DNA of 10,740 nucleotides. Source: a virus (taxonomy: Duplodnaviria > Heunggongvirae > Uroviricota > Caudoviricetes). Positions 4,227-5,029 of this stretch are shown here, piece by piece. Every line of letters begins with the position of its first letter. The first letter of the stretch is position 1. Under the pieces are notes generated by a model. It was not told where the DNA came from. It made no database searches and saw nothing but the letters and a program-made list of their open reading frames with translations. A program made the position numbers and the translations under genes. The DNA lies in IMG/VR virus record IMGVR_UViG_2513237361_000016; one strand, written 5' to 3'.

Positions 4227-4323
4227 ACGCCCTCCAAACTAAGTTTTATTAGATGCTAATTACAAATCTATCTTTGGTCAATAAAAACTAAGATTACTTA
4301 GCAATTCAAGAAATGGTGCTCCT
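4227..4323. promoter_or_regulatory. Divergent promoter/operator region between the cro-like and cI-like genes
   Basis: Minus-strand candidate promoter: -35 TTGACC (plus 4276-4281), 17-bp spacer, -10 TAGCAT (plus 4253-4258). Inverted repeats CTAAgttttaTTAG (4239-4252) and CTAAGattaCTTAG (4288-4301) are candidate operators. Confidence 0.5.
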
Positions 4324-4950
4324 ATGGAAACGGTTGGTCAGCGTATAAAAGCTCTGAGAAGAGTTACCGGAACGTCCCAGAAAGAATTGGGTAAATTTTG
4401 TGGAGTAAGCGACGTTGCTGTGGGGTACTGGGAGAAAGACATCAATACCCCTGGTGGGGAGGCACTTTCGAAATTAGCGAAGTTCTTCAATACGTCAATA
4501 GATTACATTCTTTATGGTGCTGAGTTTGAAGGCAAACTCGTCACAAACATGCGCAGAGTTCCTGTAATATCGTGGGTTCAGGCTGGGCAGTTTACTGAGT
4601 GCAGGGCAGCAGAAGTGTTTAGTGAAGTGGACAAGTGGGTAGATACATCATTAAAGATTGGTGATAACTCATTTGCATTAGAGGTTAAAGGTGACTCCAT
4701 GACTAACCCTAATGGCCTCCCAACAATACCAGAAGGCGCAACAGTGATTGTAGATCCAGATGCAGAACCTCGTCATGGAAAAATAGTCATCGCTCGACTT
4801 GATGGAACAAACGAAGCTACAGTAAAAAAATTAGTCATCGATGGCCCTCAAAAGTTTTTAGTGCCATTAAATCCTCGGTATCCCAACATCCCTATCAATG
4901 GTAATTGCCTTATCATTGGTGTAGTCAAAGGAGTTCAATACGAACTCTAA
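4324..4950 (+). CDS. cI-like prophage repressor (HTH plus S24 LexA-like peptidase domain)
   Basis: 208 aa. N-terminal HTH (QRIKALRRVTGTSQKELGKFCGVSDVAVGYWE). C-terminal S24 peptidase hallmarks (GDSM with catalytic Ser, then IVIARLDGTNEATVKKL with Lys). Confidence 0.85.
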   Translation: METVGQRIKALRRVTGTSQKELGKFCGVSDVAVGYWEKDINTPGGEALSKLAKFFNTSIDYILYGAEFEGKLVTNMRRVPVISWVQAGQFTECRAAEVFSEVDKWVDTSLKIGDNSFALEVKGDSMTNPNGLPTIPEGATVIVDPDAEPRHGKIVIARLDGTNEATVKKLVIDGPQKFLVPLNPRYPNIPINGNCLIIGVVKGVQYEL

Positions 4951-4964
4951 GACCTCTCTTCTCT

Positions 4965-5029
4965 AACTAAGGCACCGAACTAAGAAAAGTTTGGTGTTTT
5001 CTCTTGCCATAATAACTAAGTTAAGTTAG
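4965..5029. promoter_or_regulatory. Cluster of AACTAAG motifs (candidate operator or regulator sites)
   Basis: AACTAAG at 4965, 4978 and 5014, plus AGTTAG at 5024. The same heptamer occurs at 4237 and 4286 in the cro/cI intergenic region. Confidence 0.3.
4973..5005 (+). terminator. Candidate intrinsic terminator downstream of the repressor gene
   Basis: Stem CACCGAAC (4973-4980) pairs with GTTTGGTG (4989-4996), one G-U pair, 8-nt loop, followed by TTTTCTCTT (4997-5005). Confidence 0.4.

What the first reader, a model, noticed from the sequence alone, without database searches (positions are those of the whole stretch)
4237..5029. AACTAAG heptamer clustered on both sides of the repressor gene
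The heptamer AACTAAG occurs at 4237, 4286, 4965, 4978 and 5014, all on the same strand, with reverse-complement partners forming short inverted repeats (CTAAG-ATTA-CTTAG at 4288-4301). A given 7-mer is expected less than once per strand in a window of this size. The copies fall in the cro/cI intergenic region and just downstream of cI. This fits operator sets flanking the repressor gene in an OR/OL-like arrangement, or binding sites for a different regulator.
Basis: seen in the sequence. Interest (0 to 1): 0.45.

Follow-up and report, generated by a model that had tools for sequence, protein, structure and literature searches.

The report
Prophage repressor operators, P22-like type
The repeated AACTAAG heptamer is the left half of 18-bp palindromic binding sites for a prophage's cI repressor and Cro, laid out on both sides of the repressor gene as in phages P22, 21 and lambda; this is an ordinary genetic switch with a recognition sequence that seems not to have been studied.

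Summary
AACTAAG occurs at 4237, 4286, 4965, 4978 and 5014 (+), with one stray copy at 10320. Composition-matched shuffles of the two intergenic regions expect 0.11 copies, and none of 20,000 reached 5.

The functional unit is an 18-bp dyad, AACTAAG-N4-CTTAGTT (core CTAA-N6-TTAG). It has the geometry of the P22/21 operator, ATTTAAG-N4-CTTAAAT.

- Four heptamers are left halves of such dyads: OR1 (4237-4254), OR3 (4286-4303), OL2 (4978-4995) and OL1 (5014-5031).
- A conserved weak OR2 lies at 4263-4276.
- The 4965 copy is an orphan half-site.

OR1 and OR2 overlap a predicted PR and OL1 sits inside a predicted PL. OL2 lies in the loop of the cI terminator hairpin.

Three lines of evidence support this:
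- The dyads keep their positions in about 20 relatives from nine genera.
- All of them lie inside the swapped immunity cassette (4013-5045).
- The site sequence changes together with the cI and Cro recognition helices.

cI is 47-49% identical to the P22 c2 and phage 21 repressors, and the promoter-operator register matches P22.

This is a new member of a known kind, of low to moderate interest. Binding itself has not been tested.

The parts
4013..5045 (.). Immunity cassette (cro, OR, cI, terminator, OL/PL). This is the segment that is replaced in heteroimmune relatives.
   Evidence: blastn homology with SfII, PhiR29_1 and SfV ends at window 4012/4013 and resumes at 5046. Relatives with the same immunity (689R6, mEp460, LLS) are homologous across it.
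4026..4226 (-). cro gene (66 aa, P22_Cro family).
   Evidence: Pfam P22_Cro, E 4.4e-11. RefSeq annotates it as a Cro/CI family regulator, WP_000205494.1. The recognition helix EAVYQW is conserved in relatives, against AAVSQW in P22/21.
4237..4254 (.). OR1: 18-bp operator AACTAAGTTTTATTAGAT (core CTAAGTTTTATTAG, 4239-4252). It lies between the PR -10 and the cro Shine-Dalgarno sequence and covers the predicted PR start.
   Evidence: PWM score 18.9, against a 95th-percentile null maximum of 11.4. The dyad (at most one mismatch) is present at this position in all 22 same-helix relative loci. It abuts the PR -10.
4253..4281 (-). Predicted PR promoter towards cro: -35 TTGACC (4281-4276), 17-bp spacer, -10 TAGCAT (4258-4253).
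   Evidence: Consensus scan, 9 of 12 matches. GGTCAA and the -10 position are conserved in the gap-free alignment of 21 relatives.
4263..4276 (.). Candidate weak OR2: CAAATCTATCTTTG. It lies 24 bp from OR1 and 25 bp from OR3 and overlaps the PR spacer and the edge of the -35.
   Evidence: It is not significant alone (PWM -1.3; 2 mismatches). The positions C.AA-N6-TT.G are nevertheless conserved in 21 relatives. Rahnella loci have a full dyad, CTAATCTTTATTAG, at exactly this place. Phage 21 has an annotated middle operator with similar spacing.
4274..4304 (+). Candidate PRM promoter for cI: TTGGTC-19 bp-TAGCAA, with OR3 in its spacer and -10. This is tentative.
   Evidence: Inference only. The segment TTGGTCAATAAAAACTAAG...TTAG parallels PL (TTGCCATAATAACTAAG...TTAGATT). 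The promoter scan did not call it.
4286..4303 (.). OR3: 18-bp operator AACTAAGATTACTTAGCA (core CTAAGATTACTTAG, 4288-4301). It lies 7 bp upstream of the PR -35 on the cI side.
   Evidence: PWM score 24.6. The dyad (at most one mismatch) is present in 21 of 22 same-helix relative loci, always 49 bp from OR1.
4324..4950 (+). cI repressor gene (208 aa): an N-terminal HTH like P22 c2 and a C-terminal S24 domain like lambda cI.
   Evidence: Pfam HTH_3 and Peptidase_S24. PDB matches: P22 c2 N-terminal domain, E 1.9e-10; lambda cI C-terminal domain, E 7.5e-28. It is 47.3% identical to P22 c2 and 48.8% to phage 21 cI.
4965..4971 (+). Orphan AACTAAG copy at the 5' foot of the terminator hairpin. Probably not an operator.
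   Evidence: It has no dyad partner. It reads AACCAAA in mEp460, whose cI is 98.6% identical. It overlaps OL2 by position, with centres 13 bp apart.
4969..5005 (+). Intrinsic terminator of the cI transcript: stem CACCGAAC/GTTTGGTG, 8-nt loop, then TTTTCTCTT.
   Evidence: RNA fold -15.1 kcal/mol, z -2.5. Relatives have equivalent hairpins built from different stem sequences. SfV and SfII annotate terminators at the same place. The simple terminator scan did not flag it.
4978..4995 (.). OL2: weak operator AACTAAGAAAAGTTTGGT (core CTAAGAAAAGTTTG, 4980-4993), inside the loop and descending stem of the terminator, 36 bp upstream of OL1.
   Evidence: It has one mismatch to CTAA-N6-TTAG and is the fourth-best PWM hit in the window (7.5, inside the null range). 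Full dyads occupy the same position in Klebsiella phage Kp4866-6 (36 bp), Yersinia and Providencia (34 bp) and Proteus (33 bp). P22/21 OL2 lies 35 bp from OL1 and also has a degenerate right half.
5004..5032 (+). Predicted PL promoter: -35 TTGCCA, 17-bp spacer, -10 TAGATT. The predicted start is near 5039.
   Evidence: Consensus scan, 9 of 12 matches. It has the same register as P22 PL: TTGACC-ATTT-AATTAAGAAGTCTTAAAT against TTGCCA-TAAT-AACTAAGTTAAGTTAGAT.
5014..5031 (.). OL1: 18-bp operator AACTAAGTTAAGTTAGAT (core 5016-5029), between the -35 and -10 of PL and sharing TAG with the -10.
   Evidence: Best PWM hit in the window, 29.7. The core CTAAGTTAAGTTAG is identical in 11 of the 22 same-helix relative loci.

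Best explanation
The heptamers belong to the operators of a lambdoid prophage immunity switch of the P22/phage 21 (immC) type. The binding unit is an 18-bp dyad, AACTAAG-N4-CTTAGTT, with CTAAG half-sites one helical turn apart and an A/T-rich centre of 4 bp. A dimer of the cI repressor (208 aa) and a dimer of Cro (66 aa) would each recognise it through their helix-turn-helix motifs.

In the lysogen, cI on OR1 (4237-4254), helped by a conserved weak OR2 (4263-4276), covers the start, spacer and -35 edge of PR and shuts off cro and the rightward early genes. cI on OL1 (5014-5031), helped by weak OL2 (4978-4995), sits between the -35 and -10 of PL and shuts off the leftward early operon. OR3 (4286-4303) lies over the likely PRM, so it would give negative autoregulation by cI and is the likely first target of Cro.

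The cI C-terminal domain is a close homologue of the lambda cI domain. It keeps the VQAG cleavage site (from the sequence, against lambda cI from memory). Pairwise cooperativity at 24-25 bp spacing, RecA-stimulated self-cleavage, and possibly OL-OR looping over about 0.75 kb are therefore expected.

What is shown: the existence, enrichment, dyad symmetry, positional conservation and cassette linkage of the sites, their co-variation with the recognition helices, and homology to P22/21. What is inferred: actual binding, the order of occupancy, cooperativity, the position of PRM, and looping.
For: Enrichment:
- Five heptamers against 0.11 expected from local composition.
- Three CTAA-N6-TTAG dyads against 0.16 expected in the window, and none elsewhere in 43.5 kb of phage 689R6.
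- Across 23 loci there are 66 strict dyads in 6.2 kb of cI-flanking sequence, against 4 in 84 kb elsewhere.

Conservation:
- The dyads stay at fixed positions in relatives whose cI is 63-90% identical. These come from Enterobacter, Kosakonia, Kluyvera, Serratia, Rahnella, Yersinia, Rouxiella, Providencia and Proteus.
- The OR1-OR3 spacing is 49 bp in all 22 loci that have both sites.

Promoter overlap: PR and PL are the only predicted promoters in the two intergenic regions, and both overlap operators.

Cassette linkage: homology with heteroimmune SfII, SfV and PhiR29 breaks at 4012/4013 and resumes at 5046, 14 bp after the PL -10.

Specificity co-variation:
- cI helix SDVAVGYWEK goes with CTAAG-N4-CTTAG.
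- SHVAISQWEK (P22 has SNVAISQWER) goes with TTAAG-N4-CTTAA.
- NRVTVTGWEK goes with TGTAGG-ATAT-CCTACA.
- The SfV/PhiR29 and SfII cassettes carry their own repeats at the same places.
- Cro helices change in parallel (EAVYQW against AAVSQW).

Homology:
- The cI N-terminal domain matches the P22 c2 N-terminal domain, E 1.9e-10.
- Full-length identity is 47-49% to P22 c2 and 21 cI.
- The C-terminal domain matches the lambda cI C-terminal domain, E 7.5e-28.
- Cro falls in Pfam P22_Cro.

P22 biology from the literature: the consensus is ATTTAAGATATCTTAAAT, with TTAAG half-sites, an uncontacted 4-bp centre and a Val33 contact (PMC5175364, PMC4267663). Val33 aligns with Val31 here.

The phage 21 record annotates three OR and three OL operators in the same layout after a cI terminator. 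The -35/operator/-10 register of P22 PL is identical to the window's.
Against: - No binding data exist, and no record among the relatives with this immunity annotates operators.
- OR2 and OL2 are not statistically distinguishable from background on their own (PWM -1.3 and 7.5, against a null maximum averaging 5.5). They rest on positional conservation only.
- The PWM was trained on sites chosen by the strict pattern, so its core columns are fixed by construction.
- PRM was not called by the promoter scan, so the role assigned to OR3 is by analogy.
- Conservation of the OR block could partly reflect the promoters themselves, since the whole 86-bp region is fairly well conserved.
- The Rouxiella-type relatives keep the upstream dyads but have no Cro gene and no OL at these positions. 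The full OR/OL design is therefore not universal in the family.
- Co-variation cannot separate cI from Cro as the binding protein, because the two travel together.
Confidence: 0.85

Rival explanations
1. The copies are a chance by-product of AT-rich intergenic sequence and have no function.
For: The two intergenic regions are 68% A+T and the heptamer is A/T-rich. One copy (10320) does sit in an unrelated ORF, and one (4965) has no partner and is not conserved.
Against: Local composition-preserving shuffles expect 0.11 copies, and 0 of 20,000 reach 5. The dyads are conserved in position across nine genera and are absent from the rest of a 43.5-kb phage record.
Confidence: 0.01
2. The conserved blocks are promoter architecture only (-10-like TAAGAT/TAGATT, A-tracts, UP-like elements). 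The apparent dyads are incidental, and the repressor binds elsewhere or differently.
For: OL1 shares TAG with the PL -10, OR1 abuts the PR -10, and the OR3 centre always begins with AT, giving TAAGAT. The whole OR is conserved, not just the dyads.
Against: The same dyad occurs in three different promoter contexts: after a -10, upstream of a -35, and within a spacer. It is symmetric, which promoters do not require. It changes to a different dyad in cassettes with a different recognition helix, while the promoter hexamers stay sigma-70-like. The register equals that of the operators annotated in phage 21 and the matching P22 sequences.
Confidence: 0.04
3. The sites are bound by another regulator rather than by cI and Cro. 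Candidates are the cII-like YmfL protein (3991-3437), the small LexA-DNA-binding-domain protein (1011-685) or a host factor. For example, the direct repeats at 4965/4978 could be an activator site.
For: All five heptamers are on one strand, and two of them (4965, 4978) form a 13-bp direct repeat, as activator sites of the lambda cII type do. Other DNA-binding proteins are encoded in the window.
Against: ymfL and the other candidate genes lie outside the immunity cassette and are shared with heteroimmune phages that lack this motif. The 4965 repeat is lost in mEp460. No promoter is predicted next to the direct repeat. Dyad symmetry fits a dimeric HTH protein of the P22 c2/Cro type.
Confidence: 0.05
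4. Only the three full dyads (OR1, OR3, OL1) are operators. The switch has two sites at OR and one at OL, with no OR2 and no OL2. The 4978 heptamer exists only because it forms the terminator hairpin.
For: OR2 and OL2 are within background by PWM. The 4978 copy is fully explained structurally by the hairpin. Close relatives keep the degenerate right half GTTTG, which is needed for the stem.
Against: The OR2 positions C.AA-N6-TT.G are conserved, and a full dyad occurs there in Rahnella. Full dyads occur at the OL2 position in Kp4866-6, Yersinia, Providencia and Proteus, 33-36 bp from OL1. P22/21 have operators at the equivalent places, also with degenerate halves. The cI C-terminal domain is lambda-like, which allows cooperative filling of weak sites.
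Confidence: 0.2

Closest known systems
Salmonella phage P22 immC region (c2 repressor, Cro, OR1-3, OL1-3)
   Same: - Same gene order: cro, OR, c2/cI, then OL/PL.
- The repressor is 47.3% identical overall, and its N-terminal domain matches the solved P22 c2 domain.
- Cro is in the same Pfam family.
- The operator has the same geometry: an 18-bp dyad, 5-bp half-sites, and a 4-bp A/T centre.
- OL1 has the same register within PL, and OR3 the same register next to the PR -35.
- OR1-OR3 spacing is 48 bp against 49 bp, and OL2-OL1 spacing is 35 bp against 36 bp.
- The valine that contacts the half-site is conserved (Val33 in P22, Val31 here).
   Different: - The half-site is CTAAG, not TTAAG.
- Recognition-helix residues differ: SNVAISQW becomes SDVAVGYW in the repressor, and AAVSQW becomes EAVYQW in Cro.
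- Only two OL sites are visible rather than three.
- OL2 is embedded in the cI terminator instead of lying after it.
- OR3 is 22 bp from the cI start instead of abutting it.
- No gene 24 (N-like) follows PL.
- The phage backbone is SfV/SfII-like, not P22-like.
Escherichia phage 21 immunity region (annotated record OL657228.1)
   Same: cI is 48.8% identical. The record annotates a terminator directly after cI, then OL3, OL2, OL1 and the pL start, together with three OR operators between cro and cI. The layout matches the window.
   Different: The operators are of the TTAAG type. nutL, boxA and an N gene follow pL, whereas the window has a different conserved leader and no boxA.
Phage lambda OR/OL switch
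   Same: - The cI C-terminal domain is a close homologue (E 7.5e-28).
- OR is tripartite with about 24-bp centre spacing.
- A second operator set lies at PL.
- The VQAG self-cleavage motif is present (read from the sequence, against lambda cI from memory).
   Different: - The N-terminal domain and the operator sequence are unrelated to lambda's 17-bp TATCACCGC type (from memory).
- OL-OR separation is about 0.75 kb, against about 2.4 kb in lambda (from memory).
- There are no rex genes.
Heteroimmune cassettes in the same phage backbone (SfV/PhiR29 of ATGTACC...GGTACA type, SfII of TTGCG/CGCAA type)
   Same: They occupy the identical slot between ymfL (cII-like) and the conserved PL leader. Each has its own repeated dyads in the cro-cI gap and around a PL -35 downstream of a cI terminator.
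   Different: The repressor and Cro sequences are unrelated, and so are the operator sequences. These cassettes serve as natural negative controls for the AACTAAG motif.

Membership tests
Lambdoid immunity switch (cI/Cro with OR and OL) | Divergent genes for an HTH + S24 self-cleaving repressor and a small Cro protein | tested here: met
   Pfam HTH_3 + Peptidase_S24 for 4324-4950, and P22_Cro for 4226-4026. RefSeq annotation agrees.
Lambdoid immunity switch (cI/Cro with OR and OL) | Several similar dyad-symmetric sites in the cro-cI gap that overlap divergent promoters | tested here: met
   OR1 and OR3 are strict dyads. OR2 is weak but conserved in position. A predicted PR overlaps OR1 and OR2. 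PRM is only tentatively placed.
Lambdoid immunity switch (cI/Cro with OR and OL) | A second set of the same sites overlapping a promoter (PL) on the far side of cI | tested here: met
   OL1 lies between the -35 and -10 of the predicted PL, and OL2 lies 36 bp upstream.
Lambdoid immunity switch (cI/Cro with OR and OL) | Sites belong to the exchangeable immunity module and are specific to it | tested here: met
   The cassette boundaries are 4013 and 5045. The motif is absent from heteroimmune cassettes and changes with the recognition helix.
Lambdoid immunity switch (cI/Cro with OR and OL) | cI and Cro physically bind the sites and repress PR and PL | not testable with these tools
   This needs EMSA or footprinting and reporter assays.
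P22/21 c2-type repressor-operator subfamily | The repressor N-terminal domain is homologous to the P22 c2 N-terminal domain, and the DNA-contacting valine is conserved | tested here: met
   PDB 1adr, 2r1j and 3jxb match at E 1.9e-10. The alignment places Val31 opposite P22 Val33. Full-length identity is 47-49%.
P22/21 c2-type repressor-operator subfamily | An 18-bp operator with 5-bp half-sites separated by a 4-bp A/T-rich centre | tested here: met
   The consensus from 43 unique relative sites is AAATCTAAGTTAACTTAGATTT. The P22 consensus is ATTTAAGATATCTTAAAT (PMC5175364).
P22/21 c2-type repressor-operator subfamily | Half-site sequence TTAAG, that is, the same immunity specificity as P22 or 21 | tested here: not met
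   The half-site is CTAAG in every strong site. The recognition helices of cI and Cro differ from those of P22/21. This is therefore a relative with a different specificity, not the P22 or 21 immunity.
Lambda-type cooperative or looping repressor | A C-terminal domain that mediates dimer-dimer cooperativity and OL-OR octamer looping | tested here: inconclusive
   Strong homology to the lambda cI C-terminal domain and 24/25-bp site spacing are compatible with it. Cooperativity itself was not tested.
Intrinsic terminator (for 4969-5005) | A G+C-containing hairpin followed by a U-tract at the end of a gene | tested here: met
   Fold of -15.1 kcal/mol, z -2.5, followed by UUUUCUCUU. The simple scan missed it. 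Relatives keep a hairpin with changed stems.
cII-type activator site (direct repeats flanking a -35) | Conserved direct repeats bracketing the -35 of an activator-dependent promoter | tested here: not met
   The 4965/4978 direct repeat has no adjacent predicted promoter, and its first copy is lost in mEp460.

The most novel reading that the evidence does not exclude
This cassette may be a third immunity specificity within the P22/21 c2-Cro family that has not been characterised experimentally. One symmetric base change in the half-site (TTAAG to CTAAG) is matched by a tyrosine appearing in the recognition helix of both proteins: AISQW becomes AVGYW in cI, and AAVSQW becomes EAVYQW in Cro. If so, it is a natural specificity-switch pair for testing HTH recognition rules. 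A further wrinkle is that the weak OL2 operator doubles as the loop of the cI terminator, so one sequence serves as a repressor site in DNA and as a terminator in RNA.
Probability: 0.5. Interest if true: 0.4.

Novelty: new member of a known kind. Interest (0 to 1): 0.25.

Why it matters
For annotation, the result gives the operator sequence, the promoters and the cassette boundaries of an immunity type that occurs in many E. coli prophages and in phages 689R6, 569R4, Kati, mEp460_4F5 and LLS. None of the records examined annotates operators for it.

This allows superinfection-immunity groups to be predicted from sequence. It also supplies a close but heteroimmune relative of the structurally solved P22 c2-operator complex for studies of recognition specificity.

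It does not change the understanding of how such switches work.

Tried and rejected
1. Chance or AT-richness was rejected by local shuffles.
2. A PWM built from relatives' sites was used to find extra operators. It confirmed OR1, OR3 and OL1, but OR2 and OL2 are not significant by score alone. They are kept only on positional conservation.
3. An OL3 was looked for upstream of OL2. None was found. The 4965 copy overlaps OL2 by position and is not conserved.
4. A direct-repeat (cII-like) reading of 4965/4978 was rejected.
5. PRM could not be placed with confidence. TAAGAT (4289-4294) lacks a -35, and TTGGTC-19-TAGCAA is only a candidate (one search gives no call).
6. An Rfam search of the whole window gave nothing relevant, only a spurious miRNA hit.
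7. Literature searches for a prior description of this operator or of mEp460 immunity found none in the held library. This is not proof of absence, because older J Mol Biol and J Bacteriol papers are not held.
8. The conserved PL-leader RNA was tested for being an HK022 put-like element. A covariance model finds one copy per phage and none downstream of PR. It does not hit the HK022, P22 or 21 leaders. This remains unresolved.
9. PADLOC gave no hits for the unusual genes at 5350-8410.
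Full report
**Observation.** AACTAAG is present on the + strand at 4237, 4286, 4965, 4978 and 5014, exactly as stated. One further copy lies at 10320, inside an unrelated ORF. Whole-window dinucleotide shuffles expect 1.18 copies. The copies sit in AT-rich intergenic DNA, so I also shuffled the two intergenic stretches (4227-4323 and 4951-5045) on their own. The expectation is 0.11, and none of 20,000 shuffles reaches 5. In the 43.5-kb record of phage vB_EcoM-689R6, which carries the same immunity region, five of six copies lie in that region.

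**What the unit really is.** Three of the heptamers are the left arms of dyads of the form CTAA-N6-TTAG:
- 4239-4252, CTAAGTTTTATTAG
- 4288-4301, CTAAGATTACTTAG
- 5016-5029, CTAAGTTAAGTTAG

These are the only three such dyads in the window (0.16 expected) and the only three in the whole 689R6 record. The 4978 copy starts a one-mismatch dyad, CTAAGAAAAGTTTG (4980-4993). The 4965 copy has no partner. A consensus built from 43 unique sites in relatives is AAATCTAAGTTAACTTAGATTT. It is an 18-bp dyad with CTAAG half-sites and a 4-bp A/T centre.

**Context.**
- The window is an SfV/SfII/e14-like prophage of the E. coli group.
- 4324-4950 (+) encodes a 208-aa HTH_3 + Peptidase_S24 repressor.
- 4226-4026 (-) encodes a P22_Cro-family protein.
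- 3991-3437 (-) encodes a cII-like YmfL protein.
- The repressor's N-terminal domain matches the solved P22 c2 domain (E 1.9e-10), and its C-terminal domain matches the lambda cI C-terminal domain (E 7.5e-28).
- Full-length identity is 47.3% to P22 c2 and 48.8% to phage 21 cI. Only five phage records carry a repressor more than 80% identical: 689R6, 569R4, Kati, mEp460_4F5 and LLS.

**Promoters and terminator.** The consensus scan finds three promoter-like sites in 3950-5250. Only two lie in the intergenic regions:
- PR on the - strand: TTGACC-17-TAGCAT, 4281..4253.
- PL on the + strand: TTGCCA-17-TAGATT, 5004..5032.

OR1 (4237-4254) begins at the last two bases of the PR -10, covers the predicted start and ends at the cro Shine-Dalgarno sequence. 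OR3 (4286-4303) lies 7 bp upstream of the PR -35. OL1 (5014-5031) fills the PL spacer and shares TAG with the -10.

Between the cI stop codon and PL there is a hairpin (stem CACCGAAC/GTTTGGTG, -15.1 kcal/mol, z -2.5) followed by UUUUCUCUU. It is the likely cI terminator, at the place where SfV and SfII annotate theirs. The 4978 heptamer and the OL2 core lie in its loop and descending stem. The 4965 copy sits at its 5' foot.

**Comparative evidence.** I collected 20 genomic loci that encode repressors 63-90% identical to the window's. They come from Enterobacter, Kosakonia, Kluyvera, Serratia, Rahnella, Yersinia, Rouxiella, Providencia and Proteus. I added phages LLS, mEp460 and a more distant Klebsiella phage, Kp4866-6.
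- The dyads are retained at the same positions.
- Over 23 loci, strict dyads number 66 in 6.2 kb of cI-flanking windows, against 4 in 84 kb elsewhere.
- The OR1-OR3 centre distance is 49 bp in all 22 loci that have both sites.
- A gap-free alignment of 21 unique OR regions shows a middle site that keeps C.AA-N6-TT.G, 24 bp from OR1 and 25 bp from OR3. In Rahnella it is a full dyad, CTAATCTTTATTAG. In the window it is CAAATCTATCTTTG at 4263-4276. I read this as a conserved weak OR2, although its PWM score alone is not significant.
- At OL, the window's weak site lies 36 bp upstream of OL1. Full dyads occupy that position in Kp4866-6 (36 bp), Yersinia and Providencia (34 bp) and Proteus (33 bp).
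- The 4965 copy reads AACCAAA in mEp460, so it is probably not functional.

**Cassette linkage.** Homology with the heteroimmune relatives SfII, PhiR29_1 and SfV stops at window 4012/4013 and resumes at 5046. All five heptamers, both promoters and the terminator therefore lie within the exchanged immunity module. Its right edge is 14 bp beyond the PL -10.

**Specificity co-variation.** Repressor homologues with other recognition helices carry other dyads at the same places.

| cI recognition helix | Hosts or phages | Dyad |
|---|---|---|
| SDVAVGYWEK | the window and its close relatives | CTAAG-N4-CTTAG |
| SHVAISQWEK (P22 and 21 have SNVAISQWER) | Photorhabdus, Xenorhabdus | TTAAG-N4-CTTAA |
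| NRVTVTGWEK | Morganella, Proteus | TGTAGG-ATAT-CCTACA |

The SfV/PhiR29 and SfII cassettes have their own repeats. Cro changes in parallel, with EAVYQW here and AAVSQW in the P22 type. Kp4866-6 has the helix GVTDVTIGYWEK and uses CTAAA-N4-TTTAG.

**Comparison with P22 and 21.**
- The literature gives the P22 consensus as ATTTAAGATATCTTAAAT, with TTAAG half-sites, an uncontacted 4-bp centre and a Val33 contact (PMC5175364). It also describes an 18-bp site bound by a dimer (PMC4267663).
- The annotated phage 21 record shows a terminator, then OL3, OL2, OL1 and the pL start, together with three OR operators.
- P22 PL reads TTGACC-ATTT-AATTAAGAAGTCTTAAAT. The window reads TTGCCA-TAAT-AACTAAGTTAAGTTAGAT, in the same register.
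- GTCAA-N4-operator is also in register at OR3.
- P22/21 spacings are 48 bp for OR1-OR3 and 35 bp for OL2-OL1, against 49 and 36 bp here.
- P22/21 OL2 also has a degenerate right half.

The region is therefore homologous in design to immC of P22/21, with a half-site that differs at one symmetric position.

**Mechanism.**

*Shown:* the sites exist, are enriched, symmetric and conserved, are linked to the cassette, overlap predicted promoters, and co-vary with the HTH helices.

*Inferred:*
- cI dimers on OR1 and OR2 block PR.
- cI on OL1 and OL2 blocks PL.
- OR3 overlaps PRM. The candidate is TTGGTC-19-TAGCAA at 4274-4304, which the scan did not call. OR3 would give negative autoregulation and would be the preferred Cro site.
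- The lambda-like C-terminal domain provides cooperativity at 24-25 bp and possibly OL-OR looping over about 0.75 kb.
- The VQAG motif (residues 85-88) allows RecA-dependent induction.

**Rivals.** Chance is excluded. A promoter-only reading does not explain the symmetry, the three different promoter contexts or the helix co-variation. Another regulator is unlikely, because the candidate genes lie outside the cassette and are shared with heteroimmune phages. A minimal version of the switch without OR2 and OL2 remains possible, with a probability of about 0.2.

**Novelty and verdict.** I found no annotation or paper that describes this operator type, but the held literature is incomplete. The system is a standard lambdoid switch with a new specificity within the P22/21 family, so it is a new member of a known kind.
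- The unit is an 18-bp dyad.
- One copy is an orphan.
- There is a heptamer-less weak OR2.

Interest is low to moderate.

Noticed in passing
window 5046-5110 (+): A conserved block of about 65 nt starts about 6 nt after the predicted PL start, exactly where homology with heteroimmune phages resumes. It is present and unannotated in 49 phage records, including SfV, SfII, SfIV, ST64B, SPN3UB, mEp237, ZF40, Yersinia YeP1-3 and even T5-like Providencia phages. RNAalifold on 10 diverse copies gives a closing stem CGAACA/UGAUUCG, a small hairpin, and a 5-bp hairpin in which three of the five pairs vary widely through compensatory changes (a fourth changes in one sequence). There is no Rfam match. 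A covariance model finds one copy per phage, none after PR, and none in the HK022 put, P22 or 21 leaders. It shares only short motifs with HK022 putL. It may be a cis-acting leader RNA involved in antitermination or processing. No N-like gene or boxA follows it in the window.
   Followed up: partly
window 5585-6418 (-) and 6525-7394 (-): Two genes for F4/K88-family fimbrial subunits (Pfam Fimbrial_K88, E 1.6e-64 and 1.5e-48) sit inside the prophage early-left region. They are transcribed towards cI, and no usher or chaperone gene is present in the window. None of 5,426 complete E. coli genomes holds 80% or more of 5440-7610; the best match covers 37% at about 90% identity, to faeH-type genes. 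This is unusual prophage cargo.
   Followed up: partly
L165 (phage 689R6) about 30975-31020, and many IMG/VR loci: In relatives with the same immunity, the PL leader block is followed by a hairpin and an rrn-like boxA, GCTCTTTAACAA. The window, SfV and SfII lack it and instead go straight into a 91-aa ORF (5157-5432) that has no Pfam hit. There are thus two alternative modules downstream of the same leader.
   Followed up: no
window 4969-5000: The cI terminator hairpin is built around the OL2 operator palindrome. In LLS-type relatives the stem contains a shortened palindrome, AAACTAA-GT-TTAGTTT. In Kp4866-6 a full operator forms the loop of the hairpin GGTGAAAA...TTTTCACC. One sequence therefore appears to serve both as a DNA operator and as an RNA terminator.
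   Followed up: partly
L014, L015, L017, L018, L027 (Rouxiella, a Serratia MAG, a gammaproteobacterial MAG): These repressor homologues keep two or three CTAAG dyads upstream (L018 has only one). They have no Cro gene at the divergent position and no OL/PL after the repressor gene. They may represent a different kind of element that uses the same repressor-operator pair.
   Followed up: no
window 685-1011 (-): A 108-aa protein consists of little more than a LexA DNA-binding domain (Pfam LexA_DNA_bind, E 2.9e-19) and has no S24 protease domain. It is encoded among the replication and recombination genes. It is conserved in SfV-like phages and annotated there as a LexA family or LexA-like protein. 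Its function is unknown.
   Followed up: no
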